Below are positions 15,186 through 60,617 of a DNA stretch of 64,000 nucleotides, piece by piece. The notes beneath the pieces are model-generated. The model was given only the letters and a program-made list of their open reading frames with translations, was not told the DNA's origin and ran no database searches. Numbering within the stretch: position 1 is the first letter of the stretch; every line of letters begins with the position of its first letter. The DNA is from Prevotellaceae bacterium (GTDB lineage: Bacteria; Bacteroidota; Bacteroidia; Bacteroidales; UBA932): contig JAITKF010000062.1 of assembly GCA_031278545.1 (NCBI GenBank), positions 4,994 to 68,993 on the forward strand, read 5' to 3'. Both the position numbers and the translations under genes were made by a program.

Positions 15186-17507
15186 TTACATACTCCGTAC
15201 ACAACGCACATAGCCGGAGCTTTTCCCATCTTCTGATGAGATACTAATACAATCACCATGTGAGTCGTACATGTATAAGACCGGAGAGATACTCACTACT
15301 CGCTGCCCGGCCTTACGTGTTCCCAAGCAGTCGCTCACCACATACGCTGTGTGTTCAGCACTACCAACAAACAAACAGTTGGAGTTTGAGTCATGAAACT
15401 CTGTTTCTCCTGTGGGGACAAACGCTTTCGTCAGGTACTGCGCCCAGGCGTCGATTGTGGATTCAAACTCGGATTGATCAGGCAGCCGCCAGCCTGCCGG
15501 GCACAGCGAGTTGGAAGAGGTAGCCAGCACATCTTTCCAATACTCTTTCCCTGTGGCGTCGTGATCATCGCACTTTGAAACGGCTATGACGGCCGAATGC
15601 GAGGCGTAGGCTAAGTAATCATCCATCGTCCAGAAATTGTTCGTCGACAGCATCGCGATACGGTATATTGTATTGTCGCGCGAGTCCTTTATCCACGCTT
15701 CCCAGTTCTGTGCCCCGCTGCTTCGTTTCTGGCAGGGGTGCGTAGCATTTTGGTATAAATCGGCGCCGGTGTAGGGGCACGACTCGACGGTGAGGGAATA
15801 CTCTCCTGCCGCGCGCTTCCATGTGTCGGTATCGCAGGCGTTGTCGCGCACTTCGCGGTAGTAGGTATAGGTGCCGGAGGTTGCCAGTTCGCTTGCTGTA
15901 AATATATAGCTGGCGGTGTTTGTGGTGAACGTCGCCGCCGGGTTCTCGCGTACCCACCGGTAGGTGTAGGCGCCCGATGCGCCGGACGCGGGCGTTCCTG
16001 CCGCGATGGTTGCGGTGGTTGCGGTATTGCCTGCGGTGGCTGTGTCGCTGCCGCTGATGGCGCCGGCGTCGAGTGCGGTATAAAGTGTCACTTCTTGCTG
16101 GTTGCTTTCGGACGTGCAGTGCGAGGTTTCGTCGAGAACGAATATGTAGTACTTGCCTGCTGCCGTTACGTTGAAGTATAATGTGCCTCCTGTGCCGTCC
16201 TGCATGCCGCCGACGGGGGAGTGCCCGCCGTCCAGCAGTTGATAGGTGTAGCCGCCGAGCCCTGTACAGCTTATCGCGGTGTTTGGGTGGCAGTAGGTGG
16301 CCGCTGCCGGCAGCGCCGGAACCGGCGGCAGCGGCCAGCCTACGCAGACGACCGACAGGCTGTCGGTGCATCCCGAGGCGTTGATGGCTTTTACGTATAT
16401 TGTAACGCTGCCGCTGTCGGGCATGGTAAACGTGTAGTTGTTGGAGGCCGTGTAGTTGCAGGAGAGGTTTTCAAACTCGCATTCGGCTTCGGAGGGGTCG
16501 CCATTCCCGTTGTGATAGGGATTATGGATGCATTCGGAGCAGGAGTGCGTAAAGCAGTATGATTCCCCGCCGGCGACTATGACCGTGACTTCGCTGCCGG
16601 CGCATACATTCGTTGGCGCGGAGGTAACCGACAGGGTGGGGGAGGGGAGTACGGTTACCGTGGTGTTGGCTGTTTTGATGCAGCCGCCGGCATTGCGTAC
16701 CGATACGTTGCAGGAGGTATCCTGCTGGGGCGCTATGCGTGTGGTGGCCGAGGTGGTGGCGGTTATCCACGATGCGCCGCCGTCGAAGCTATACGATGAT
16801 GCGCCGGTGGCTGTGGCGGTGAGCGTAAGGCTGTCGCCGGCGCAGATGGTCGATATCGAGGCGGTGAAGGAGGTGATTTCCGGCGACGGGGGGATGAGTC
16901 CCGGGCAGCCTGTCGTGTCGGTCAGGGAGGTGATGCAGCCGCTGTAGGTGGCGACGCCGGCGGCGAGCCGCACGCCGTTGACTACGAATGGCGGCGAGCC
17001 GTGCAGGTCATAATAGCCGTTGTTGTCCGTCGCGTTGGGCGGGTAGTCGGAGGCGTAGGTGCACCAGTTGAAGCGTGTGTTGGAGGGTACTCCGGTGAGG
17101 CCGACGGTAATGGTTGCACTGAATGAGCCTGCCGGATTCCCGTAGAGGTAGAATCCGCGTGTGTTCGACGGTACGGTGGCGATGGTTCCTTCACTGCCCG
17201 ACGCGAGGGCGGGGGCGTTGAGTGTGGCGGCTGTCCACGCGCCGTAGGCGCCATTGGCGTGTATTGGTTGGTAGTCGATGAAGAGCCATACGCTGTCTAA
17301 GTGTTGGCCGGAGGGCGCGGTGTCCCAGTAGACCCGGAAGGTTACTTTGGGGGGTGTTGCGATGTAGTCGGCGCCTATTTGCGCGACGCGTACGACGGAC
17401 TCCTGTCCGCGGCTCACGTGGCTGAGGGCACAGGCGAGGAGGAGGAGGACGAGGGATAGGAGGTGTTTATGGTATGTGGCAGGAGTTGGCACGGTTGTAA
17501 TCAACAT
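15186..17507 (-). CDS. Secreted surface protein with Cys-containing Ig-like repeats and a C-terminal FISUMP (Fibrobacter succinogenes major paralogous) domain
   Basis: 773 aa with a signal peptide and repeated CAGD/CAGSE beta-sandwich-like modules. The C-terminal segment DSRDNTIYRIAML..FWTMDDYL..CPAGWRLPDQSEFE matches the FISUMP pattern. Confidence 0.75.
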   Translation of the reverse strand: MLITTVPTPATYHKHLLSLVLLLLACALSHVSRGQESVVRVAQIGADYIATPPKVTFRVYWDTAPSGQHLDSVWLFIDYQPIHANGAYGAWTAATLNAPALASGSEGTIATVPSNTRGFYLYGNPAGSFSATITVGLTGVPSNTRFNWCTYASDYPPNATDNNGYYDLHGSPPFVVNGVRLAAGVATYSGCITSLTDTTGCPGLIPPSPEITSFTASISTICAGDSLTLTATATGASSYSFDGGASWITATTSATTRIAPQQDTSCNVSVRNAGGCIKTANTTVTVLPSPTLSVTSAPTNVCAGSEVTVIVAGGESYCFTHSCSECIHNPYHNGNGDPSEAECEFENLSCNYTASNNYTFTMPDSGSVTIYVKAINASGCTDSLSVVCVGWPLPPVPALPAAATYCHPNTAISCTGLGGYTYQLLDGGHSPVGGMQDGTGGTLYFNVTAAGKYYIFVLDETSHCTSESNQQEVTLYTALDAGAISGSDTATAGNTATTATIAAGTPASGASGAYTYRWVRENPAATFTTNTASYIFTASELATSGTYTYYREVRDNACDTDTWKRAAGEYSLTVESCPYTGADLYQNATHPCQKRSSGAQNWEAWIKDSRDNTIYRIAMLSTNNFWTMDDYLAYASHSAVIAVSKCDDHDATGKEYWKDVLATSSNSLCPAGWRLPDQSEFESTIDAWAQYLTKAFVPTGETEFHDSNSNCLFVGSAEHTAYVVSDCLGTRKAGQRVVSISPVLYMYDSHGDCISISSEDGKSSGYVRCVRSM

Positions 17508-17514
17508 ATGGGGT

Positions 17515-18459
17515 CTATCGGGCGATGTTAAACGTCGCGGTTTTTTGTCCTTTGTAGGCGCCTTTGCCGTGGAGGGTAACTTCTGCGGTGCCTACTTCGA
17601 CGTTATTTTTGTAGGTTACCGAGAAATCTTTACCCAGCGTCAGTTCTACGGTCGGGCTGTTGTCTTCGCGGTAGTATGCTTTGGGCACTACGGTGATGGG
17701 TTTGCCTGAGTAGGGTTGTGTTTCGATGGGTTCGATGACGGTGTGGTCGCTTTGGCCGAGGTCTTTTTTGGCGGGGCGGTGGGCGTGGTCGTTATAGTAG
17801 GTAACGTTTTGGTTGAATTTTTCTACGAACGCGTCGGCGGCGCCATTGTTCAGGATGTTGTAGGCGTCGATTTTATCGGTGATTATCCGGTATTTGGTTT
17901 CTACTTCGCGGCGTATGTCGGGCACGTGTCCATGCGGGCGTTGGCTCCATTCTTCGTTTCGGGCGAGGTAGAGTTGTTCAAAACGTGTTTGCACGTTGGC
18001 CATTTCTGTGACCCATTCGGTGATGCCGATGGTGGCGACGTCGGCGGCGTATGCGTCTTGCAGGTCGGCGATGAGTATTCCTACGGCGGCGGATTCTTCT
18101 TCGTAGCTTTTTCTTTCGATCTCGCCGTTGAATGCTTTCATGCGTACTTCGAGGCGGTGGCCGGCTTGCTGGACGGCGCTATTGAAGTGGTGCAGGGCGA
18201 CGTTGATAGCGCTGTTGATGCCCACGATGCAGCGGTCGCGCCGCAGGTCGGTGTCGGCGATTTCTTCGGTATAGGCGCTGCCCCGCACGGCGTCTATCAG
18301 CGTCTTTTCGGTATCTATCAGTTGGTAGAATACCGGCAGGTCGTCGGCCAGCAGGGTGGCGATTACGGTGTCGCCGTTAATTAATACGCGTACTGTTACT
18401 AAGTACTGGTAATGCGCTTCGTTGCGCAGGTAGCTAAAACGGATTTTTAGAATCTTCAT
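17515..18459 (-). CDS. Uncharacterised protein: helical N-terminal domain plus C-terminal Ig-like (MBG-like) domain, no signal peptide (paralog A)
   Basis: 314 aa with ATG start, 8 nt upstream of the FISUMP gene. It is clearly homologous to 32504-33484 (LRNEAHYQY/LRANEHSQY, ALHHF, KAF, QRPHG/QKPHG, KDLG..IEPI, GKP[IV]TVVPK.YYR, [TS][VI]TY[KR]NN..G.AE[VL]T[LI].GKG.Y.G.K..TF.I). Confidence 0.75.
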   Translation of the reverse strand: MKILKIRFSYLRNEAHYQYLVTVRVLINGDTVIATLLADDLPVFYQLIDTEKTLIDAVRGSAYTEEIADTDLRRDRCIVGINSAINVALHHFNSAVQQAGHRLEVRMKAFNGEIERKSYEEESAAVGILIADLQDAYAADVATIGITEWVTEMANVQTRFEQLYLARNEEWSQRPHGHVPDIRREVETKYRIITDKIDAYNILNNGAADAFVEKFNQNVTYYNDHAHRPAKKDLGQSDHTVIEPIETQPYSGKPITVVPKAYYREDNSPTVELTLGKDFSVTYKNNVEVGTAEVTLHGKGAYKGQKTATFNIAR

Positions 18460-18554
18460 GTTTTTTTATATTTTGGTTAATTGTTTATACAGGCCATGAG
18501 TGCGGAGGGGCGTTGTGATAATATCGATGGTAGCCGCCCGAACAGTTTTTTGGG

Positions 18555-18759
18555 GGAATCCGACGCGTCGGGAAACGTCCTGCGCGTTTCGGGAAGGAAT
18601 CCGACGTGTCGGATTTTGTCCTGCGTGTTTCGGGAAGGAATCCGACGCGTCGGATTTTGTCCTGCGCTGTTCGGGAAGGAATCCGACGTGTCGGGAAGCG
18701 TCCTGCGCTGTTCGGGAAGGAATCCGACGCGTCGGGAGACGTCCTGCGCTGTTCGGGAC
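18555..18759. repeat. Tandem array, 5 x 41 bp, each unit bearing the palindrome TCCGACG(C/T)GTCGG
   Basis: Unit starts fall at 18555, 18596, 18637, 18678 and 18719, an exact 41-bp period. The array is GC-rich within AT-rich intergenic DNA. Confidence 0.95.
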
Positions 18760-18858
18760 GACGTCCCCACGTAGTGGGATAGCTGCCGGAGCGGGAATTT
18801 TCGTCATATTTTATGGTAAATAGAGGTATCATGTATTCGTCGTTTAAAAAACCAGCTG

Positions 18859-18866
18859 CAAAGATA
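18859..18866 (-). promoter_or_regulatory. -7 promoter box (TATCTTTG on minus strand) upstream of the 41-bp array and paralog A
   Basis: The plus strand reads CAAAGATA. I see no other CAAAnnTA between here and the ATG at 18459. Confidence 0.5.
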
Positions 18867-32503: not shown

Positions 32504-33484
32504 CTATCCCTCGACGGCGATGCTCGCTTCGATACTAAACGTCATCCTCTTTTTCCCCGTATACCCGCCCTTGCCGCGGATGGTAAGCTCGGCCATACCC
32601 GGACGGATATTATTCCGGTAAGTTATCGAAAAATCATGCCCCAGCGACAGCTCAACGCCCGCATCGGCGCCGGTATCAGCGTCGCGGTAATACACCTTCG
32701 GCACGACCGTCACAGGCTTGCCCGTGGCCATTTGCGGCGGGATGGGTTCGATACACGTGCATCCCCCCTTACCCAAGTCTTTCCCAGCATGGCGGTGCAG
32801 CAACTCCCTGAATTTGTCGGCTACGACATTGAGGCGCACGATAAACTCGTCGAACGCGCCGGGCGTGTCGCCGACGATGGAGGCCGCCACAATGCGGTCG
32901 ATCATCCGGTCGTAGACGGTTTCGACGCTGCGCCGCGCCACACGTAGCCGGCCATGCGGTTTTTGCGCCGCTTCGGAAAGGCGCTGGTGGTACAACTCCA
33001 CGAACGCCGTTTTAGCAGCGGCCAGCTCGTCGACCCACGGCATTAGCCCGATAAGCGTCGCCTTCGCGGCGTACTCAGGGCTGCGGAGTGCATCCATCCA
33101 TATCTCGATAGCAGAGAGTTCCGCCATATAATCTTTCCGGCGTATGATGCCGAATGCTTTGAAGCGGTAATAAAGATCCTTCGCCGCGTCTTCCATGGCG
33201 GGGTCGAAATGGTGCAGCGCCGATGTCAACAACGCGCTCATGCCTGTCAGGCAACGCTCGATACGCCTCTCGGCCGTCATGATATACTTCGTATAGCTGC
33301 TTTTACGTATTTTACCCAGCAGGGCGAACTCCTCATCGAGCCGTTCGATGAAATCAGGATACAGGTCGGCCACAACCTCTTTTACCTGCGGCCATGCATC
33401 AAGCAGCTCTTGAAAATACGTGAAGTATTGACTGTGTTCATTAGCACGGAGCGAATGAAAATAGATCAGTTTAATTTTTTCCAT
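32504..33484 (-). CDS. Uncharacterised protein, paralog B of 17515-18459 (helical domain plus C-terminal Ig-like domain, no signal peptide)
   Basis: 326 aa with ATG start. The shared motif blocks are listed under paralog A. Confidence 0.75.
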   Translation of the reverse strand: MEKIKLIYFHSLRANEHSQYFTYFQELLDAWPQVKEVVADLYPDFIERLDEEFALLGKIRKSSYTKYIMTAERRIERCLTGMSALLTSALHHFDPAMEDAAKDLYYRFKAFGIIRRKDYMAELSAIEIWMDALRSPEYAAKATLIGLMPWVDELAAAKTAFVELYHQRLSEAAQKPHGRLRVARRSVETVYDRMIDRIVAASIVGDTPGAFDEFIVRLNVVADKFRELLHRHAGKDLGKGGCTCIEPIPPQMATGKPVTVVPKVYYRDADTGADAGVELSLGHDFSITYRNNIRPGMAELTIRGKGGYTGKKRMTFSIEASIAVEG

Positions 33485-33547
33485 CTTTTTTAAAATTATA
33501 TAATATTTTATTTCTATTTAAATCTTTCAATATGTCATCAAAATTTT

Positions 33548-33711
33548 GGGACGGCATGTCGCTGCGAGCGACGGTTCGTCCCAAAGTTGGGACGGCGTGT
33601 CGCTGTGAGCGACGGTTCGTCCCAAAGTTGGGACGGCGTGTCGCTGCGAGCGACGGTTCGTCCCAAAATTGGGACGGCGTGTCGCTGCGAGCGACGGCTC
33701 GTCCCAACTTT
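33548..33711. repeat. Tandem array, 4 x 41 bp, each unit a 35-nt two-stem hairpin GGGACG-GCGT-GTCGCT-GCG-AGCGAC-GGTT-CGTCCC
   Basis: Unit starts fall at 33548, 33589, 33630 and 33671, an exact 41-bp period. Only four single-base differences separate the units (33556, 33606, 33668, 33698), and none lies in a stem. Confidence 0.95.
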
Positions 33712-33786
33712 TTTATAACGTCATAGAATGTTTATTACATTGTCATAACGTTGTGACGATGTATTGAACGTTCTAGTATAGCGATG

Positions 33787-33794
33787 CAAAGGTA
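33787..33794 (-). promoter_or_regulatory. -7 promoter box (TACCTTTG on minus strand) upstream of the second 41-bp array and paralog B
   Basis: The plus strand reads CAAAGGTA. Only a weak AAATTTTG lies between the array and the ATG at 33484. Confidence 0.5.
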
Positions 33795-33854
33795 AGCATT
33801 ATTTCTTACCTGAAAAATAATTGAAATGATTTATTTGGTTTGGCGTCCTGCGCT

Positions 33855-34931
33855 TTACATTTTCTCGTAGAGGCGGCGCAGTTTGGGGGCTGTCATAATC
33901 TGGGGCCAGTTTTTGCCGAGCGCGTTTTCCCAGAGGGGGGTCATTCCGAGGGAGACTTTTATCATTGTATCGAACTGGTCGTCGGTACAGTTTGCGCAGA
34001 CGTTTTGTGGCAGGTCGATGCGCCATTTGTCGAGCATGTCGTGGAACCGGCGGACGCCGTCGGGGTAATATTCTTCGAGTTGATTAAAGACGATGGCGTT
34101 TCCTACGCCGTGGTGTGTGCCTAACACGAAGGCCATGCCGTAGCTTACGGCGTGGGCGACGCCAACCTGCGAGTAGGCGATGCTCATGCCGCCGTGCCAC
34201 GAGGCCATCATGAGCGCCTCGTCGCTGTCGTCGTCCCACGTGTTTTTGTGGAGGAATACGTCTTCGCACAGCGCCTGCGCTTTTTCGCCGTAGCTTTTGC
34301 TGAAGGCGTTCAGGTATGTTCCGTTCAACGATTCGATGCAGTGGATGTAGCAGTCCATACCGGTGAAGAATCGTTGGTTTTTCGGGGCGTCTTTCGTCAG
34401 CGACGGGTCGAGCAGTACTTGGTCGAAGGTCGTATAGTCGGAGTTGAGGCCGAGTTTCCGTTCGGGGCCTGTCAATACGGCCGTGCGGGATACTTCGGCG
34501 CCTGTGCCGCTCAGTGTCGGGATGCCGACGCGGTAGACGCCGGGGCGTTGCAGCAAGTCCCAGCCTTGATATTGCGCCGACGAGCCTTCGTGGGTCATCA
34601 TCAGCCCGACGGCTTTCGCCATGTCCATGATGCTGCCGCCGCCGACGCCGATGATGCCCGATACGGCGCCAAATTCTTTTTGCAGCCGGTCGCGTAGCGC
34701 GTCTACCTGTTGTGTTTTCGGTTCGTCGGTGGTGTTGATGAAGATGACCGTATCGCGTTCCGCCAGCGGGATGCGTCGGCGGAGGCTCTCGTGGCGGGCG
34801 AATACGTCGTCGACAAGGAAGATGAACGGGGCGCCGGCTTGTCGTTTCGGGGCGATGATTTCGTGGAGGTCGTCGAATGCGCCGCGTCCGTAAATTACGC
34901 GCGGCACCATGGGGAAGTTTCTATATTGCAT
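33855..34931 (-). CDS. Iron-containing (class III) alcohol dehydrogenase family protein, KdnB-like candidate
   Basis: 358 aa with GVGGGSIMDMAK and a His-rich metal-site region (DCYIHCIES, HGG..VGVAHAVSYG). It starts 11 nt after the kdsB stop. The track ORF extension to 35099 overlaps kdsB and was rejected. Confidence 0.8.
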   Translation of the reverse strand: MQYRNFPMVPRVIYGRGAFDDLHEIIAPKRQAGAPFIFLVDDVFARHESLRRRIPLAERDTVIFINTTDEPKTQQVDALRDRLQKEFGAVSGIIGVGGGSIMDMAKAVGLMMTHEGSSAQYQGWDLLQRPGVYRVGIPTLSGTGAEVSRTAVLTGPERKLGLNSDYTTFDQVLLDPSLTKDAPKNQRFFTGMDCYIHCIESLNGTYLNAFSKSYGEKAQALCEDVFLHKNTWDDDSDEALMMASWHGGMSIAYSQVGVAHAVSYGMAFVLGTHHGVGNAIVFNQLEEYYPDGVRRFHDMLDKWRIDLPQNVCANCTDDQFDTMIKVSLGMTPLWENALGKNWPQIMTAPKLRRLYEKM

Positions 34932-34942
34932 AGTTCGATTGT

Positions 34943-35713
34943 TTATTTTTTGATGGTTGGTATTTGAGGTGGGGTTGCGGGGGTGTTGGCGAGGTGTTTT
35001 TCGGCATTGAGCAGGTCTTCGGGGGTGTCGATTTCGATGCCCATGTAGTCGGTGAGTATCATTTTGATTTTTTTTCCTGTTTCGAGGTATCGCAGGCATT
35101 CGATTTTTTCGATGCGTTCGAGGGGGGTTGCGGGGGTGTTGGCGAAGTCGAGCAGCGCTTGCCGGCGGAATGCGTAGACGCCGATGTGTTCGTAGTATGG
35201 CGGCCGGATGTCTGTTGCGCGGGGGTAGGGGATGGGGGCGCGGGAGAAGAGCAGGGCATAGCCGTTCTGGTCGACGACGACTTTTACGAAGTTCGGGTCG
35301 TTGATTTGGTGCCGGTCGTGCATCGTTTGCATGAGTGAGGCGAGGTCGGTTTGTGCCGCGTCGGGGGCATCGAATACGGCCAGCAGTTTTTCTAACGGTT
35401 CGCGTGAGGTAAAGGGTTCGTCGCCTTGTACGTTTACGACGATGTCGGCGTCGAGTGTGGCGGCGGCTTCGGCGATGCGGTCGCTGCCGGTTTCATGGGG
35501 TCTTTGGCTCATGTAGGCGCGTCCGCCGTGGTGTGTGATTTCGGTGTATATCTCCGGGCTGTCGGTGACGACCATCACGTCGTCGAACAGGCCAGTGTTG
35601 GTTACGGCGGCGTATGTCCGCCGGACGACCGGTATGCCTCCTAACGGGGCCATCAGTTTGCCGGGGAAGCGGGAGGCTTCGTATCGTGCGGGGATGAGCG
35701 CTATTCGTTTCAT
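34943..35713 (-). CDS. kdsB: 3-deoxy-manno-octulosonate cytidylyltransferase (CMP-Kdo synthetase)
   Basis: 256 aa with the IPARYEASRFPGK and NVQGDEP motifs. Confidence 0.92.
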   Translation of the reverse strand: MKRIALIPARYEASRFPGKLMAPLGGIPVVRRTYAAVTNTGLFDDVMVVTDSPEIYTEITHHGGRAYMSQRPHETGSDRIAEAAATLDADIVVNVQGDEPFTSREPLEKLLAVFDAPDAAQTDLASLMQTMHDRHQINDPNFVKVVVDQNGYALLFSRAPIPYPRATDIRPPYYEHIGVYAFRRQALLDFANTPATPLERIEKIECLRYLETGKKIKMILTDYMGIEIDTPEDLLNAEKHLANTPATPPQIPTIKK

Positions 35714-35734
35714 TTTGTCGGGGGATGGTCGTTT

Positions 35735-36946
35735 CTACCGGGATGCGGGGGTGCGTAGGGTGTTTTGCAGGGAGTGTTTGATGGTTGTAGCCCGCCGGTG
35801 TACGTCGTCGTCGCTCCATCCCATTTTGATGGCTATTGAGAGGGTGCGTGCGATGATGTCGTCGGATTGTGGGAATGCGACGGTGGCGTAGTCGGGCAGG
35901 AGGTCGAGCAGGGGTTTGTAGAGGGGGTGTGCAAAGGCGCGTGCTTTGAGGTGTTCCCATTTGCGGATGTAGTGCCAGTTGTTGTCGTACCAGTGGAAGA
36001 CGCCGTCGATGCCGGCTTTTTTGAGGGCGTTAGAGGCGCGTCGGGCGAGGTCTTCGGAGGGCATGAAGAGGGAGAGGAATGTGGCGCTGTCACCGTCGGG
36101 GTCGGGCAGGCGGCGGAAGGCGATGTCGGGCAGGTCGGCGAGGGATTCTTTGAGGGTTTGTTTATGTTTGCGGTGGATGTCGACGAAGCGTGCGAGCTTG
36201 CTTATCTGTGCGCATCCGATGGCGGCGTGGAGTTCGGAGATGCGGTAGTTGTAGCCGATGAAGGGGTGTCCTTCGGCGCCGCGGTCGTCGTTCGTATGGT
36301 CGTGTCCGTGGTCGTGGTATTGGTCGGCGCGTTGGAGGAGCGTATGGTCGTTGGTAACGACGGCGCCGCCTTCGCCGCAGGTTATAATTTTATTAAAGTC
36401 GAACGAATAGCAGCCGGCGTCGCCGATGCTGCCGAGCATTTTTCCTTGGAACGAGGCGCCGAAGGCTTGGCAGGCGTCTTCGAGGAGGAAGAGTCCGTGT
36501 TGGCGGCAGATGTCGAGCAGTTCGTCTACTTGCGCCATAGCGCCGCACATGTGTACGGGCATGACGACCTTTGTGCGCGGCGTAATAGCCCGGCGTACGG
36601 CTTGCGGGTCGAGGCAGAGGGTGTCGTCGATGTCGGCCATCACCGGCACGGCGCCCGTAGCGAGGATGGATTCAAAGCTTGCGACAAATGTGAACGGCGG
36701 GAGGATGACTTCGTCGCCGGCGCCTACGCCCATCGCCGCCAGCGCCGTCGTCAACGCGGCGGTGCCGCTCGACAGCAACAGGGCGTGGCGTACGCCGGCT
36801 GTCCGGGCGATGGCCGCTTCCATTTCCTTCGCTTTCCAATGTCCTTTGCGGAGGCCGTTGAAGCCATACCGCATTAAAATTCCGGTATCCATTACATCCT
36901 GTAATTGTTCCCGCTCTGCATGATCGAATAATTCAAAACCTGGCAT
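35735..36946 (-). CDS. DegT/DnrJ/EryC1/StrS-family PLP aminotransferase, KdnA-like candidate
   Basis: 403 aa with SSGTAAL, a F.FNK..T.GEGG lysine region (FDFNKIITCGEGG) and YNYRISELHAA. Confidence 0.85.
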   Translation of the reverse strand: MPGFELFDHAEREQLQDVMDTGILMRYGFNGLRKGHWKAKEMEAAIARTAGVRHALLLSSGTAALTTALAAMGVGAGDEVILPPFTFVASFESILATGAVPVMADIDDTLCLDPQAVRRAITPRTKVVMPVHMCGAMAQVDELLDICRQHGLFLLEDACQAFGASFQGKMLGSIGDAGCYSFDFNKIITCGEGGAVVTNDHTLLQRADQYHDHGHDHTNDDRGAEGHPFIGYNYRISELHAAIGCAQISKLARFVDIHRKHKQTLKESLADLPDIAFRRLPDPDGDSATFLSLFMPSEDLARRASNALKKAGIDGVFHWYDNNWHYIRKWEHLKARAFAHPLYKPLLDLLPDYATVAFPQSDDIIARTLSIAIKMGWSDDDVHRRATTIKHSLQNTLRTPASR

Positions 36947-36950
36947 TTGT

Positions 36951-38138
36951 TTATTTATTTAATGGTTGATTTGTTTTGTTGTGGGCTTGTGGTGGTGGTT
37001 TGCGCCATTCTTCGAGCGTCCGCAGGACGGTTTCTGCGGCGGCGTCGGAGGGTGTTTGCGTCGGGGGGCTGAGGCGGTTCAGGCAGTCTTGCGCGGCGGC
37101 TATCTGCGCAGCGCGTCGTGTCGCGTCCTGCATCAGCGCCAGCGCGACGGGCGTAATCAGGTCGGCGCGGCAATATTGCAGGACAAATTCGGGAATCACC
37201 TGCCTGCCGGCTATAATGTTGATAAGATTGGCGTAGCGGGTGGTCGCTAGCCGCGCGATGAGGTGATTGGTAAGGCGGTTAAATTTGTATGCTATCAGGT
37301 GTGGCGTTCCGCAGGCCGTGAGCTCCAGCGATACCGTCCCCGATGCGGCTATCGCAAACTCCGCCGCGCCGAACGCTGCATACCGCTCTGCCAGCCCTAC
37401 CACTACGCGATGCGGCGTCGCTACCGACGCAAACGCGCGCGCGACCTCCTCCTGCATCGCCGCTACCGACGGGATCAATACGTATAAATTGGGCGCCGCC
37501 GCCTGCAATCGTTCGAGTACGGTAATAAATACCGGCGCGAGTTGCCGTATTTCGTGACGTCGGCTGCCAGGCAGTATGCATAGCACGCGCGCGCCGTCGG
37601 GCACAGGACATGTTGCCGGCGTCGCCTCCGCTATATTTTCTGCCGCCGGATGCCCGACGAAGGTACACGGAAGGCCGTATTTCTCAAAATAAGGCGGCTC
37701 GTAGGGGAGAAGCGTCATCAGGTGAGTGAGCCGTTTCGCAGCTTTTTTGGCGCGGCCTTTCTTCCACGCCCACACCTGCGGCGCTACGTAATGTACCATC
37801 GGAAACGACATTCCTTTCCGCTTTAGCCGCCCCAGAACGCGGCTGATAAATCCCCAGCTATCGACAGTTACCAGCACATCCGGCCGCTCCTGCCCGATGT
37901 GTGCGACGACCTGACGCATCCGGCGCAAAATGACCGGCAACTTCGGCAGTATTTCCCAGAAACCCATCACCGACAGGTCGCCAATATCGAACAGCGAACG
38001 GAACCCCAGTCCGGCCATCGTCTCGCCGCCCACGCCGCAAAAGCGCACGCCGGCGTCCCGTTCGCGCAACGCCCGCATCAGCCGCGACGCCAGAATATCG
38101 CCCGACGGCTCCCCTGCTATGATATAAATTGTCTTCAC
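36951..38138 (-). CDS. lpxB: Lipid-A-disaccharide synthase
   Basis: 395 aa with an IIAGEPSGD N-terminus and an LPGSR motif. The start codon at 38138 is GTG. Confidence 0.9.
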   Translation of the reverse strand: MKTIYIIAGEPSGDILASRLMRALRERDAGVRFCGVGGETMAGLGFRSLFDIGDLSVMGFWEILPKLPVILRRMRQVVAHIGQERPDVLVTVDSWGFISRVLGRLKRKGMSFPMVHYVAPQVWAWKKGRAKKAAKRLTHLMTLLPYEPPYFEKYGLPCTFVGHPAAENIAEATPATCPVPDGARVLCILPGSRRHEIRQLAPVFITVLERLQAAAPNLYVLIPSVAAMQEEVARAFASVATPHRVVVGLAERYAAFGAAEFAIAASGTVSLELTACGTPHLIAYKFNRLTNHLIARLATTRYANLINIIAGRQVIPEFVLQYCRADLITPVALALMQDATRRAAQIAAAQDCLNRLSPPTQTPSDAAAETVLRTLEEWRKPPPQAHNKTNQPLNK

Positions 38139-57849: not shown

Positions 57850-57966
57850 CAAAAAACAATGTACAATACTCCACGCCCAATTGACCATCTTCGGCGATTC
57901 CGGGGCATAAAGCGAACCCCGCACTATTTTTTCCTTGATTCCCGTTTGTTTTTATTAAACGTAACC

Positions 57967-58071
57967 GGAAAAAGAAGCATCTTAACAAGGGAAAAAAGTA
58001 CCTTAATAGGGAAAAGAACTACCTTAACCGGGAAGAGAGCGTTCTTAATTAAGAGAAGATATGTTACCCAT
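57967..58071. repeat. Direct-repeat array, 4 good copies plus 1 degenerate copy of a 21-bp unit GGGAAAArAnnnAyCTTAAyn
   Basis: CTTAA recurs at 57981, 58002, 58023 and 58044, an exact 21-bp period. Confidence 0.85.
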
Positions 58072-58154: not shown

Positions 58155-60617
58155 ATGTTTACGATTTTCAAAAAGGAATTACACACTTTCTTCTCGTCGA
58201 TTACCGGATATCTGGTCATTGTCGTATTCTTGTCGGTCAATGCCTGGTTTTTGTGGATTGGCAAAAGCGCTATGAATATACTCGACGGCGGCTTTGCGTC
58301 GCTCACGGGGCTGTTTGAAATCGCGCCGTGGTTATTCCTATTCCTGCTGCCGGCTATCGCGATGCGTACATTGGCCGACGAGAAAAAAACAGGGGCTATC
58401 GAACTGCTGTTGGCACAACCGCTCACCGAATGCCGCCTGATTCTCGGGAAATATCTTGCCGTCGTTGCCGTTGCATGGCTGGCGCTACTGCCGACGTTGG
58501 TCTATTTCGGCAGCGTCTACTGTCTGGGTCAACCGGTAGGCAACCTCGACGCCGGCGGTACGTGGGGCTCCTACATCGGACTGCTACTGCTGGCGGCCGG
58601 TTATGCGGCTATCGGACTGCTGGCCTCGTCGTTTACCGATAACCAGATTATCGCATTCCTGCTGGCCGCCGTCGGATGCTTCTGCTTCTACTTGGGCTTC
58701 GACGGGCTGGCGGCCTTGTTGCCGACGGCCGATAGGTTCCTCATGGCGTTGGGCATCAACGAACATTACCGTTCGATGAGCCGCGGCGTCATCGACCTGC
58801 GCGACATACTGTATTTCGCCAGCCTCATCACGCTTTTCCTCGAAGCGGCGCGGCTACGGCTGAAAGGCGGGCAAAGGGCACCCGCCGCCCGCCGCCATGC
58901 CCGTGCCGTGGCGCGTTTTACAGCGCTGGCGGCCGCCGTGCTGCTGCTCAACTACGTCGCCCGTACCGTCCTCCTCCGTATTGACCTCACTGCCGACCGC
59001 CGCTATACCCTCGCCAACGCTTCAAAACGTGTGATGCAGCGTATCGTAAATCCCCTGTTGATACGGGTCTACCTTGATGGCGAGATGCCAATCGAAATGA
59101 AAAAACTCCGCACCACGATTAAGGAAACTATCGACGAACTGAAAATATATGCCCCCGGAAAGGTGCATTATACATTCGTCAATCTTGCCGCCGACGTCGA
59201 TCCGCGCGCCATGGACGACGCTTATATGGAACTTTATGAGCGCGGCCTCATGCCGGTGGTTATCGAAGAGCGCGCCGCCGATGGCAGCCGTTCGGAGAGA
59301 ACGCTGTTTCCCGGCGCGGTCGTTTCTTATTCCCCCACAGGTGATACGGCCTCACGCCGCCGCGAAATGGCCGTCAATTTCCTGCAAAGTAATGCCGACG
59401 CCGATAGCGACGAGCGGCTGCTTATTGCGCAGCAGAATGTCGAAACGGCATTAGTAGCCGCCATTGCGCACAGCATCCGGCCGCAGACGCCCCGCATTGC
59501 TTTTGTCGAAGGCCATGGCGAATTGGATGAATACGAAACCGGCGATATTTGCAAAGAACTAGCCTCCTTCGCCCGCCTCGACCGCGTCGTGCTCAACGGC
59601 GATGTGGATGCGCTCCACGGCTACGCTGTGGCTATCATCGCCAAACCTACCCAACCGTGGGACGAGGCCGACAAGCTCGCCGTCGACCAGTACGTCATGA
59701 ACGGCGGACGGGTCGCATGGTTCATTGACGCCGTCAACGTGCACCACGACAGTCTCGCTGCCGGCCAACGTACCTTCGCCTTCGCCTGCGACCACCGTCT
59801 CGACGACCAGCTTTTTAAATATGGCGCACGCATCAACCCCTATATTATCCGCGACTTGCAATGCGCCCTGTTGCCCGTCAACATTGCCCCCGCCGGCCAA
59901 ACAGCCGACTTCCGCCCCGCGCCGTGGACTTATTATCCCCTGCTGACGCCGCCGCCGGAACATCCGATTACCAGTGGCCTAAATCTTATAGAATCGAAGT
60001 ACCCAAGCACGGTTGATACGGTCGGCCACGGGACGGCGGTCGCGAAGACCGTCCTCCTTGCCTCGTCGCCGTACAGCCGCACGCAGGCCGTCCCGGCGCT
60101 CATCAGCCTTGCCGAAAGTATGCAGCAACCCGATCCGGCACATTACAGGCAAGCGTCGTTGCCGGTAGCCGTGCTGATGGAAGGCCGTTTTTCCTCGGCG
60201 TTCCTCCACCGCCCGTTGCAGCAATACAACCACCGGCGTCCCTTCCCTTTCCGGTCGTTTAGCGATACCACCAAAATGATTGTCGTAGCCGACGGCGATA
60301 TTATCCGCAACGATGTCGTGCGCCGTCCTGACGGGGTACGTATTTTCCCGTTGGGTTTTGACAATTACATGAAGACGCAATTCGGCAACCGCGCTTTTGT
60401 TAAGAACGCCCTCTATTACCTGCTCGACGACGATAATGTGCTCCAGCTCCGCCGCCGCGAATGGACGCTACGTATGCTCGACAAGACCAAACTCTACCCG
60501 CAGCGCTATTTTTGGGTCGCCCTCAACAGCATTCTACCCGTCGCTCTCACCCTGCTATCCGGCTTGCTCTTTACCGGCATCCGGAGATACCGCTATGGCA
60601 TGAAACGTAAAGCATAA
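58155..60617 (+). CDS. gldF/gldG: Fused gliding-motility-associated ABC transporter permease GldF and accessory protein GldG
   Basis: 820 aa. Residues 1 to about 240 form an ABC-2 permease with a GldF-like start (FKKELHTFFSS). The rest is GldG-like (TM, RIDLTADRRYTL, large extracytoplasmic domain, C-terminal TM). Confidence 0.8.
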   Translation: MFTIFKKELHTFFSSITGYLVIVVFLSVNAWFLWIGKSAMNILDGGFASLTGLFEIAPWLFLFLLPAIAMRTLADEKKTGAIELLLAQPLTECRLILGKYLAVVAVAWLALLPTLVYFGSVYCLGQPVGNLDAGGTWGSYIGLLLLAAGYAAIGLLASSFTDNQIIAFLLAAVGCFCFYLGFDGLAALLPTADRFLMALGINEHYRSMSRGVIDLRDILYFASLITLFLEAARLRLKGGQRAPAARRHARAVARFTALAAAVLLLNYVARTVLLRIDLTADRRYTLANASKRVMQRIVNPLLIRVYLDGEMPIEMKKLRTTIKETIDELKIYAPGKVHYTFVNLAADVDPRAMDDAYMELYERGLMPVVIEERAADGSRSERTLFPGAVVSYSPTGDTASRRREMAVNFLQSNADADSDERLLIAQQNVETALVAAIAHSIRPQTPRIAFVEGHGELDEYETGDICKELASFARLDRVVLNGDVDALHGYAVAIIAKPTQPWDEADKLAVDQYVMNGGRVAWFIDAVNVHHDSLAAGQRTFAFACDHRLDDQLFKYGARINPYIIRDLQCALLPVNIAPAGQTADFRPAPWTYYPLLTPPPEHPITSGLNLIESKYPSTVDTVGHGTAVAKTVLLASSPYSRTQAVPALISLAESMQQPDPAHYRQASLPVAVLMEGRFSSAFLHRPLQQYNHRRPFPFRSFSDTTKMIVVADGDIIRNDVVRRPDGVRIFPLGFDNYMKTQFGNRAFVKNALYYLLDDDNVLQLRRREWTLRMLDKTKLYPQRYFWVALNSILPVALTLLSGLLFTGIRRYRYGMKRKA

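What the first reader, a model, noticed from the sequence alone, without database searches (positions are those of the whole stretch)
33485..33794. A second 41-bp tandem hairpin array (4 copies, different sequence) occupies the same position upstream of paralog B
The layout matches the 18460-18866 locus: a minus-strand TACCTTTG -7 box (33794-33787), then four 41-bp units (33548-33711), then the ATG at 33484. Each unit folds on paper as GGGACG-GCGT-GTCGCT-GCG-AGCGAC-GGTT-CGTCCC, two 6-bp stems joined by an internal loop, followed by an A/T spacer. The only four differences between units (33556, 33606, 33668, 33698) fall in the internal loops, the apical loop or the spacer, and never in the 24 stem positions. 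That is suggestive of selection on the structure but not conclusive. The two arrays share the exact 41-bp period and the GGGACG/CGTCCC motif, yet are otherwise dissimilar. This argues for a functional class rather than a recent duplication. The array also lies just downstream of the lpxB-kdsB operon, so it could additionally act as a multi-hairpin terminator.
Basis: partly seen in the sequence, partly recalled or inferred. Interest (0 to 1): 0.7.

Follow-up and report, generated by a model that had tools for sequence, protein, structure and literature searches.

The report
Repeat-hairpin leader tied to DUF6261 genes
The four 41-base hairpin repeats are real and belong to an undescribed class: almost every gene of one uncharacterised Bacteroidales family (DUF6261) has its own array of 41-43-base repeats just upstream, different in sequence at each gene but fixed in length, which points to a paired repeat-plus-protein module of unknown function.

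Summary
There are four 41-bp units at 33546-33707, and all four differences between them lie outside the stems. A Bacteroidetes -7 box (TACCTTTG) lies upstream, and the ATG of a DUF6261 gene lies 61 nt downstream.

The class claim holds. I catalogued 47 arrays upstream of DUF6261 homologues, in the window, in 44 of the 48 genome-scan loci with upstream sequence, and in one more locus. Further copies and relatives (L002, L004, L048, L088, L089) carry one too. Periods are only 41, 42 or 43 bp, with 2-12 copies and unrelated unit sequences. In 515 kb examined, no such array occurs anywhere else.

- **Length:** unit length changed at least 10 times on the protein tree but never left 41-43.
- **Structure:** 46 of 47 units are more self-complementary than shuffles. 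Stems vary less than loops, and related arrays show compensatory stem changes.
- **Strand:** promoter boxes sit upstream of arrays (55% of loci, background 7%), and unpaired bases are A-rich on the sense strand. The array is therefore most likely a transcribed leader.

The layout resembles type III toxin-antitoxin loci, but membership fails. There is no terminator, the protein is an acidic helical bundle plus an Ig-like domain rather than ToxN-like, and intact genes without arrays exist. Nothing matches in Rfam, and the held papers say nothing on this protein family. The terminator idea is not supported. The mechanism is unresolved; my best guess is repeat RNA recognised by its own gene product.

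The parts
33787..33794 (-). Bacteroidetes-type -7 promoter box TACCTTTG, 87 nt (box start to array start) upstream of the array
   Evidence: Read directly. A strict TAnnTTTG lies within 200 nt upstream of the array in 22 of 40 loci, against 7.1% of background windows.
33724..33775 (-). A/T-rich imperfect inverted repeat in the leader, between the promoter box and the array
   Evidence: Folds. It is followed by an A-run on the sense strand, so it does not look like a terminator. It is specific to this locus and absent from the orthologue L007.
33546..33707 (-). Array B: four 41-nt units. Each is a stem-loop, UUGGGACG-(AACC)-GUCGCU-CGC-AGCGAC-(ACGC)-CGUCCCAA on the sense strand, with hairpin cores at 33548-33582, 33589-33623, 33630-33664 and 33671-33705.
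33485..33545 (-). 61-nt A/T-rich unstructured spacer between the last unit and the start codon
   Evidence: Across the class the spacer is 41% A and 29% T, with a median length of 62 nt.
32504..33484 (-). DUF6261 gene B (326 aa): N-terminal long-helix bundle plus C-terminal Ig-like domain
   Evidence: Pfam PF19775, E 1.2e-28. AF2 models.
18859..18866 (-). -7 box TATCTTTG of the sister module
18555..18758 (-). Array A: five 41-nt units of unrelated sequence, with core palindrome TCCGACRCGTCGGA
17515..18459 (-). DUF6261 gene A (314 aa), 41% identical to B

Best explanation
The array is the repeat half of a conserved two-part cassette: promoter, then a tandem array of 41-43-nt self-complementary units, then a short A/T-rich spacer, then a DUF6261 gene. 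The array is transcribed with the gene from the upstream TAnnTTTG promoter and folds into a row of stem-loops. Each unit has a slowly evolving basal stem and linker and a fast-evolving apical part that keeps pairing through compensatory changes. Each unit serves as one binding unit for a partner of fixed size. That partner is most plausibly the product of the adjacent gene, or an oligomer of it, so the leader would titrate or sense its own protein (feedback control, sequestration or RNP formation). The layout resembles type III toxin-antitoxin loci. Shown: the cassette architecture, the length constraint, the self-complementarity and covariation, and the strand asymmetry. Inferred: transcription of the array, function at the RNA level, and above all the identity of the partner.
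For: 1. The association is exclusive. 44 of 48 genome-scan homologues with upstream sequence carry an array, 47 arrays were catalogued, and L088 and L089 add two more. In 515 kb every tandem repeat of period 38-46 lies upstream of a DUF6261 gene. The window holds two genes and two arrays.
2. There is no conserved neighbouring gene, so the module is the array plus this gene.
3. Unit length is under stabilising selection. Periods are 41 (15 arrays), 42 (31) and 43 (1). There were at least 10 period changes on the protein tree, none leaving 41-43, although unit sequences are unalignable between subfamilies.
4. Structure is selected. 46 of 47 units fold better than shuffled-unit tandems, and 25 have z below -2. 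Within arrays, 14.6% of stem columns vary against 23.4% of non-stem columns (p = 5e-5). Compensatory pairs appear in related arrays.
5. The array is transcribed in the sense direction. The promoter box is upstream of the array in 55% of loci against a 7% background, and lies between array and ATG in only 2 of 40. Antisense boxes are at background level. Unpaired positions are 38% A and 20% T on the sense strand, with A>T in 34 arrays and A<T in 10 (p = 3e-5). A-runs outnumber T-runs.
6. Sequences are locus-specific, with conserved basal parts and rewritten, homogenised apical parts, even between proteins that are 90% identical and between syntenic orthologues. This fits co-evolving specificity.
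7. There is precedent. Repeat RNAs upstream of a gene bind and neutralise its product in ToxIN (PMC3401426) and in AbiF/RCd22, whose protein is not ToxN-like (PMC12373285).
Against: There is no direct evidence that DUF6261 binds nucleic acid. Its N domain is acidic (median pI 5.7), and neither domain resembles a known RNA- or DNA-binding or nuclease fold.

G.U wobble does not support a sense-strand RNA helix. In Watson-Crick helices of each array (counted once per distinct context), 1x1 mismatches are G.T 8, A.C 20 and other 44. Within-array stem variants are G.T 45 and A.C 46. Whole-array folding energy does not favour the sense strand.

The period stays at 41-43 whether the hairpin spans 16 or 40 nt, and one array (L027) has almost no hairpin. 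That is easier to explain with rigid duplex DNA than with flexible RNA.

Intact genes without arrays exist (L051; L037 and L049 have other structures). In L022 and L038 the only strict promoter box lies between the array and the gene.

Copy numbers come from short-read assemblies that often break inside the arrays.
Confidence: 0.35

Rival explanations
1. The array works as duplex DNA. It would be a helically phased row of dyad-symmetric sites, one unit per four helical turns, bound cooperatively by a dimeric or oligomeric protein (DUF6261 itself or another). Sitting downstream of the promoter, it would act as a roadblock or autoregulatory operator, analogous to iteron or centromere-like repeat arrays next to their binding-protein gene.
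For: The mean period is 41.7 bp, or 4 x 10.43 bp, with a tolerance of +/-1 bp. It holds through at least 10 indel events and whatever the hairpin span. This is tighter than the 31-62, 40-48 and 39-57 nt ranges of RNA repeats in type III TA families (PMC3401426). Units are palindromic. G.T and A.C mismatches are equally frequent among copies, as expected without RNA-level selection. L022 and L038 have the promoter box downstream of the array.
Against: Arrays lie 24-180 bp downstream of the promoter box and contain almost none themselves, unlike autoregulatory iterons or operators that overlap promoters. Unpaired positions and homopolymer runs are strand-asymmetric in the transcribed sense. The protein has no recognisable DNA-binding fold and is acidic. 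There is no clear 10.5-bp A/T periodicity (W harmonic 4 z = 1.3). The core palindromes occur nowhere else in the 64 kb. Only four-turn spacing is seen, never two, three or five turns.
Confidence: 0.22
2. The array is a cis-acting leader that works through housekeeping machinery only (RNases, Rho, ribosome) and is not recognised by DUF6261. A stack of stem-loops would set mRNA stability, read-through or translation of an abundantly made structural protein. The sequences drift freely under concerted evolution.
For: The array sits in the 5' leader. Hairpin content and compensatory changes are present. The protein looks structural rather than enzymatic. Array-less intact genes show the array is dispensable for keeping the gene. 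No partner-specific signature was found.
Against: This does not explain why unit length is held to 41-43 nt, why units stay in tandem and homogenised, or why such arrays are seen only at this gene family in 515 kb. It also does not explain why basal stems and linkers are conserved while apical parts are rewritten. L027 has almost no structure.
Confidence: 0.2
3. It is a canonical type III toxin-antitoxin system. DUF6261 would be a toxin, and the array a precursor cleaved into 41-42-nt antitoxin RNAs that assemble with it.
For: The promoter, tandem short repeats and gene are laid out as in toxIN, cptIN and tenpIN, and the unit length falls within their range. The modules are autonomous, multi-copy and locus-specific.
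Against: There is no terminator between array and gene. The protein is twice the size of known toxins, acidic, and not ToxN/Kid-like or HEPN-like. PADLOC and PHROGs give no hit. Intact genes without arrays exist. The family is absent from the phage and plasmid collections.
Confidence: 0.06
4. It is a multi-hairpin intrinsic terminator for the upstream lpxB...Fe-ADH operon, as the first reader suggested as an additional role.
For: G+C-rich hairpins lie downstream of a co-oriented operon. The last unit is followed by AAAAUUUU.
Against: No unit passes the terminator scan, because none has a U-tract directly after the stem. A promoter box lies between the operon and the array. The same arrays occur behind unrelated or divergent upstream genes. 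The linkers are A-rich rather than U-rich.
Confidence: 0.03
5. It is a functionless minisatellite that hitch-hikes with the gene family by descent.
For: Arrays are homogenised by concerted evolution. The pseudogene L048 still carries an intact array. A few genes lack one.
Against: The arrays are retained across proteins down to about 20% identity. The period stays within 41-43 despite repeated indels. Stems are depleted in variation, and compensatory changes occur.
Confidence: 0.05

Closest known systems
Type III toxin-antitoxin loci (toxIN, cptIN, tenpIN; Blower et al. 2012, PMC3401426)
   Same: A promoter is followed by a tandem array of short (31-62 nt) direct repeats, followed by a protein gene on the same strand. 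Repeat sequences are locus-specific. The modules are autonomous and sometimes multi-copy.
   Different: There is no terminator between array and gene. The protein is a 308-329-aa acidic helical bundle plus Ig-like domain, not a roughly 170-aa ToxN/Kid-like endoRNase. Copy number reaches 12, against 1.9-5.6. Unit length is held much more tightly (41-43). Units are mostly simple long stem-loops. Intact array-less genes exist.
AbiF / RCd22 with tandem abiF RNA motifs (Rfam RF03085; PMC12373285)
   Same: Repeated stem-loop motifs in a leader or ncRNA directly upstream of, and co-transcribed with, a helical protein that they bind and neutralise. Stem structure matters and stem sequence does not.
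   Different: AbiF is an Abi_2/HEPN protein with a conserved RNA motif, two copies and a terminator. Here there is no Abi_2 domain, no Rfam match, 2-12 copies and no conserved motif across the family.
Plasmid iterons and partition-site repeat arrays next to their binding-protein gene (established knowledge; not tested against specific families here)
   Same: Direct repeats with a period that is an integral number of helical turns. Sequences are replicon- or locus-specific. They lie adjacent to the gene of the protein that binds them, which autoregulates.
   Different: Those have periods of one or two turns and usually overlap the promoter or origin. They lie on plasmids, with Rep, ParB or ParR-type proteins. 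Here the period is four turns, the array is downstream of the promoter in a chromosomal housekeeping context, and the protein has no DNA-binding fold.
REP/BIME palindromic elements and CRISPR repeats
   Same: Imperfect palindromes about 35-40 nt long that can occur in clusters.
   Different: REP elements are dispersed genome-wide with one sequence class per genome and a RAYT transposase. CRISPR repeats are separated by unique spacers and accompanied by cas genes. Here the units are head-to-tail, private to one locus, and tied to one non-enzymatic gene family.

Membership tests
Type III toxin-antitoxin (toxIN/cptIN/tenpIN) | Tandem array of short direct repeats immediately upstream of the protein gene, on the same strand | tested here: met
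   arrays of 2-12 units ending a median of 62 nt before the ATG.
Type III toxin-antitoxin (toxIN/cptIN/tenpIN) | Promoter upstream of the repeat array | tested here: met
   TAnnTTTG lies within 200 nt upstream in 22 of 40 loci, against a 7.1% background. This is a consensus match only, with no transcript data.
Type III toxin-antitoxin (toxIN/cptIN/tenpIN) | Short palindromic Rho-independent terminator between the repeats and the gene | tested here: not met
   None found in the window. The spacers are A/T-rich and unstructured, and only 11 of 47 arrays have a T-run within 25 nt of the array end.
Type III toxin-antitoxin (toxIN/cptIN/tenpIN) | Protein of the ToxN/AbiQ, CptN or TenpN families (Kid/MazF-like endoribonuclease, about 150-200 aa) | tested here: not met
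   Pfam gives only DUF6261. PDB sequence and profile searches find nothing. Foldseek on two AF2 models has a best E of 0.02 to coiled-coil or BAR-like bundles. Protein length is 308-329 aa.
Type III toxin-antitoxin (toxIN/cptIN/tenpIN) | Repeat length and copy number within the family ranges (31-62 nt; 1.9-5.6 copies) | tested here: inconclusive
   Length of 41-43 nt is within range. Copy number of 2.1-11.7 (median 5) exceeds it.
Type III toxin-antitoxin (toxIN/cptIN/tenpIN) | The protein is toxic, the repeat RNA neutralises it, and the protein cleaves the precursor into units | not testable with these tools
   This needs expression and RNA-end experiments. Intact array-less genes (L051) argue weakly against toxicity.
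AbiF / abiF RNA motif | Abi_2 (HEPN) protein and the RF03085 motif upstream | tested here: not met
   No Abi_2 hit. No Rfam match in the window or in 20 loci.
Any Rfam 15 RNA family | Score at or above the family gathering threshold | tested here: not met
   Searches found only tRNAs elsewhere in the loci. The E-value mode on 33400-33900 gave only sub-threshold chance hits.
Pfam DUF6261 (PF19775), the downstream protein | Score above the curated cut-off (27 bits) | tested here: met
   100.5 bits for B and 118.9 bits for A.
CRISPR array | Repeats separated by unique spacers, with cas genes nearby | tested here: not met
   The units are head-to-tail with 2-6-nt linkers and no spacers. No conserved neighbouring genes.
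REP/BIME-RAYT elements | The same palindromic unit dispersed in many intergenic regions, with an associated Y1 transposase | tested here: not met
   The units of arrays A and B occur only at their own locus in the 64 kb. No arrays occur away from DUF6261 genes in 515 kb.
Iteron or centromere-like DNA repeat arrays | Direct repeats phased in whole helical turns | tested here: met
   The mean period is 41.7 bp, or 4 x 10.43.
Iteron or centromere-like DNA repeat arrays | The adjacent gene encodes a Rep, ParB or ParR-type DNA-binding protein, on a plasmid or mobile replicon | tested here: not met
   No such domains or folds. The context is chromosomal housekeeping genes. No match in PLSDB.
Intrinsic terminator | G+C-rich hairpin directly followed by a U-tract | tested here: not met
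   The linkers are A-rich on the sense strand.

The most novel reading that the evidence does not exclude
DUF6261 genes and their private 41-43-nt repeat arrays form a new family of two-component repeat-RNA/protein systems in Bacteroidales. A non-nuclease helical-bundle plus Ig-like protein would assemble with, or be held in check by, unit-length stem-loop RNAs made from its own leader. Each paralogue would be kept orthogonal by rapid co-evolution of the apical stem-loop. That would make it a type III-TA-like or RNP-forming system with a new protein fold and a strict molecular ruler.
Probability: 0.25. Interest if true: 0.85.

Novelty: new variant of a known kind. Interest (0 to 1): 0.65.

Why it matters
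If the arrays are recognised by their own gene product, this would be a new repeat-RNA (or repeat-DNA) plus protein module outside the ToxN, AbiF and CRISPR families. It would have an unusually strict length ruler and many natural orthogonal pairs per genome, which is useful both as biology and as parts for RNA-protein tethering. It would also give the first functional handle on Pfam DUF6261. Even on the most conservative reading, it is an undescribed, gene-family-specific structured leader. It shows clear covariation in uncultured Bacteroidales, apparently from termite guts (inferred from MAG names, not verified). It also systematically breaks short-read assemblies just upstream of these genes.

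Tried and rejected
- **Strand tests for RNA wobble.** I compared whole-array MFE on the sense and antisense strands, classified 1x1 mismatches in Watson-Crick helices, and classified within-array stem variants. None supports sense-strand G.U tolerance. All are confounded by the A/C-rich sense composition, so they leave RNA versus DNA open.
- **DNA-bending test.** A Fourier analysis of W, AA/TT and A content per unit gave no clear 10.5-bp W signal. The A-only fourth harmonic is equally explained by four A-rich unpaired segments per hairpin.
- **Palindromic loop centres.** I checked these as a sign of duplex operators. Three of 13 four-nt loops were palindromic against 0.8 expected, which is too weak to use.
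- **Protein function.** PADLOC, PHROGs and NCBIfam gave no hits. PDB sequence and profile searches found nothing. Foldseek of the full-length and N-domain models against PDB and BFVD found nothing below E = 1e-3. An Rx(n)H HEPN-like motif near the N terminus is not conserved across subfamilies, so I rejected it.
- **Reaching cultured relatives.** The search of 1.84 billion representatives was swamped by giant proteins that repeat the C-terminal Ig-like module. The word-indexed searches returned only about 35 metagenomic clusters. The metagenome, viral, phage and plasmid scans hit only the Ig-like module. I could therefore not test whether DUF6261 members outside this clade carry arrays, and no organism with transcriptome data was found.
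- **Conserved partner gene.** None was found.
- **Antisense promoter.** Frequencies were at background.
- **Literature.** 'DUF6261' appears in one unrelated paper.

Full report
**1. The observation**

Tandem Repeats Finder gives 33546-33707 as period 41, 4.0 copies, 95% matches, score 296. It also reports a second 41-bp array at 18555-18758 with 5 copies. The 35-nt hairpin core occurs four times with at most one mismatch, and never in 100 shuffles. The four differences between units are at 33556, 33606, 33668 and 33698. They lie in an internal loop, the apical loop, the linker and the other internal loop, and none touches a stem position.

On the minus strand the order is:
- TACCTTTG at 33794-33787;
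- an A/T-rich inverted repeat at about 33775-33724;
- the array;
- a 61-nt A/T-rich spacer;
- the ATG at 33484.

The leader folds far better than shuffles, with z = -11.7 on the sense strand.

**2. The genes**

The downstream ORFs are 32504-33484 (B, 326 aa) and 17515-18459 (A, 314 aa). Both are Pfam DUF6261 proteins and are 41% identical to each other. They are the only two in the window. The co-oriented genes upstream of B are LpxB, a DegT aminotransferase, a CTP_transf_3 (KdsB-like) enzyme and an Fe-ADH-like protein. The wider context is ordinary chromosomal housekeeping: alpha-2-macroglobulin, PBP1C and methylmalonyl-CoA mutase. The exact protein is annotated in NCBI as coming from a Prevotellaceae MAG.

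**3. A class, not a pair**

Contigs carrying homologues repeatedly stop 20-240 nt before the start codon, inside a tandem repeat.

A scan of one genome per GTDB species with a family alignment returned about 50 full-length relatives. Nearly all are from Bacteroidales MAGs (Prevotellaceae, Tannerella, Dysgonamonadaceae, Odoribacteraceae, Candidatus Symbiothrix), with several paralogues per MAG. The isolate names and the Symbiothrix genus suggest termite guts, but I did not verify this.

TRF on the upstream regions found an array in 44 of 48 loci with upstream sequence. The 47 catalogued arrays (these 44, the two window arrays and L006) have these properties:
- period 41 (15 arrays), 42 (31) or 43 (1);
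- 2.1-11.7 copies, median 5;
- a median of 62 nt between the array and the ATG;
- G+C from 15% to 72%;
- unit sequences that cannot be aligned between subfamilies.

Periods 41 and 42 dominate the whole histogram of repeats with period 25 or more. No neighbouring gene is conserved, so the module is promoter plus array plus gene. Orthologues B and L007 share downstream genes but have different upstream genes.

**4. Selection on length**

On a neighbour-joining tree of the proteins, the period changes at least 10 times. One change is between proteins that are 90% identical (L039 with 42, L040 with 41). The period never leaves 41-43. Indels are therefore fixed and homogenised, but only within a +/-1 band. 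This is much tighter than the repeat-length ranges of the known type III TA families, which are 31-62, 40-48 and 39-57 nt (PMC3401426).

**5. Selection on self-complementarity**

46 of 47 consensus units fold better than shuffled-unit tandems, with median z = -2.2 and 25 below -2. In about 30 arrays one imperfect hairpin spans 35-40 of the 41-42 nt. In the others a 16-27-nt hairpin is followed by an A-rich linker. L027 is an exception, with almost no pairing.

Within arrays, 14.6% of stem columns vary against 23.4% of other columns (odds ratio 0.56, p = 5e-5).

Related arrays keep the flanks and basal stem and replace the apical stem with compensation:
- L059/L066: CTTTG-GGCA-CT-TGCC-CAAAG versus CTTTG-CGCT-CA-AGCG-CAAAG.
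- L012/L019: TTCCAAAAC/GTTTTGGAA versus TTTCCCCC/GGGGGAAA.
- RNAalifold counts 3 of 10 and 7 of 14 pairs with double changes in two subfamilies.

The syntenic orthologue of B (62% protein identity) aligns in register and shares only TCCCAA-NN-TTGGGAC(G)AA.CG. In L039/L040 the flanks and basal stem are conserved, while about 15 apical nucleotides are rewritten in every copy.

**6. Which strand, and RNA or DNA?**

A strict Bacteroidetes -7 box lies within 200 nt upstream of the array in 22 of 40 loci, against 7.1% of background windows. It lies between the array and the ATG in only 2, and is almost never inside arrays. Antisense boxes downstream are at background, 4 of 47.

On the sense strand, unpaired positions are 38% A and 20% T. 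A exceeds T in 34 arrays and T exceeds A in 10 (p = 3e-5). A-runs outnumber T-runs. This is the composition expected of a transcribed, read-through leader with A-rich loops, so I infer sense transcription of the array with the gene.

Against an RNA helix, G.U is not favoured. Fixed 1x1 mismatches are G.T 8, A.C 20 and other 44. Among copies, G.T is 45 and A.C is 46. The sense strand does not fold better than the antisense strand.

The mean period of 41.7 bp equals four turns of 10.43 bp, and it holds whatever the hairpin span. That keeps a duplex-DNA reading alive. A Fourier test gave no clear A/T bending signal.

**7. The protein**

AF2 gives a confident N-terminal bundle of long helices (pLDDT 92, pTM 0.70 for the domain) and a C-terminal Ig-like sandwich. 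Foldseek against PDB and BFVD finds nothing below E = 1e-3; the hits are generic coiled-coil, BAR or sensor bundles. PDB sequence and profile searches, PADLOC, PHROGs and NCBIfam are all empty.

The N domain is acidic (median pI 5.7) and variable (26% pairwise identity). The C domain is conserved (48%). Its module is the same one repeated up to 66 times in giant proteins. Nothing marks the protein as a nuclease, a toxin, or a known RNA- or DNA-binding protein.

**8. Comparison with known systems**

[quoted passage not shown] Membership fails on tested features:
- no terminator;
- no ToxN-like or Abi_2 protein;
- intact genes without arrays (L051; L037 and L049 carry other structures).

No Rfam family matches in the window or in 20 loci. 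DUF6261 appears in one unrelated paper. The family is absent from the phage, plasmid and IMG/VR collections except for its Ig-like module.

The terminator idea fails for the class and is not supported in the window.

**9. Verdict**

The best-supported reading is a transcribed tandem stem-loop leader that forms a two-part module with its DUF6261 gene and is measured by a fixed-size partner. That partner is most plausibly the gene's own product (confidence 0.35). The rivals are a phased duplex-DNA operator array (0.22) and a leader acting through housekeeping factors only (0.20). A canonical toxin-antitoxin, a terminator and a neutral minisatellite are all unlikely. The mechanism needs transcript mapping and binding assays.

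Noticed in passing
window 33724-33775 (minus strand): An A/T-rich imperfect inverted repeat lies in the leader between the -7 box and array B. It is followed by an A-run rather than a U-run, and is absent from the orthologous leader L007.
   Followed up: partly
window 57962-58038: A 21-bp tandem repeat (TAACAGGGAAAAGAAGTACCT, 3.7 copies) lies upstream of an ABC-transporter auxiliary gene (58155-60617). A TATCTTTG box sits only a few nt before that gene's ATG. It is unrelated to the 41-bp arrays.
   Followed up: no
window 32504-32770 (C-terminal about 80 aa of gene B), and gene A likewise: The conserved C-terminal Ig-like module (...DFxVTYKNN..G.A..TIHGKG.Y.G....F.I) is the same module that giant proteins repeat up to 66 times. 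It swamped the search of 1.84 billion representatives (15,626 proteins at E <= 1e-10).
   Followed up: partly
L048 2410-3330: This is a decayed copy. The promoter box and a homogeneous 5.2-copy 41-bp array are intact. The gene has lost its N domain: a short ORF is followed, in another frame, by the C-terminal 105 aa.
   Followed up: partly
L037 about 2880-2960; L049 about 2500-2830; L051: These are intact DUF6261 genes without a tandem array. L037 has one roughly 57-nt long hairpin with unit-like sequence (CCGAGGCGTCGGATTTT...). L049 has dispersed direct and inverted copies of ACGTCATTGCGA. L051 has a plain leader of about 110 nt behind TACCTTTG.
   Followed up: partly
L038 about 2390-2475, and L022/L038 spacers: L038 carries a second, unrelated 2.1-copy repeat (TRF period 42, consensus unit 40 nt) directly upstream of its main array. 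In L022 and L038 the only strict TAnnTTTG box lies between the array and the gene, so those arrays may not be transcribed with the gene.
   Followed up: no
L001, L003-L006, L008, L011, L021, L026, L043, L062, L088-L090 (contig ends): Short-read assemblies from four independent sources end inside or just beside the arrays. DUF6261 genes therefore often sit at contig starts, and the reported copy numbers are probably underestimates.
   Followed up: partly
window 15186-17507 (minus strand): The 773-aa ORF downstream of gene A has no Pfam hit. It has a FISUMP (Fib_succ_major) domain just under the cut-off and a weak PHROG tail-protein match. It is not conserved next to other DUF6261 genes.
   Followed up: partly
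window 33855-38138 versus L002/L007: The B module sits at a synteny break. The downstream genes (nucleotidyl transferase, methylmalonyl-CoA mutase) are shared with the orthologous locus. The upstream genes differ: LpxB...Fe-ADH here, and NYN, CN_hydrolase and DXP synthase there.
   Followed up: partly
L013, L009, L042 arrays: Variant units alternate in higher-order periods of 84 and 126 bp, which suggests that blocks of two or three units are duplicated together.
   Followed up: no
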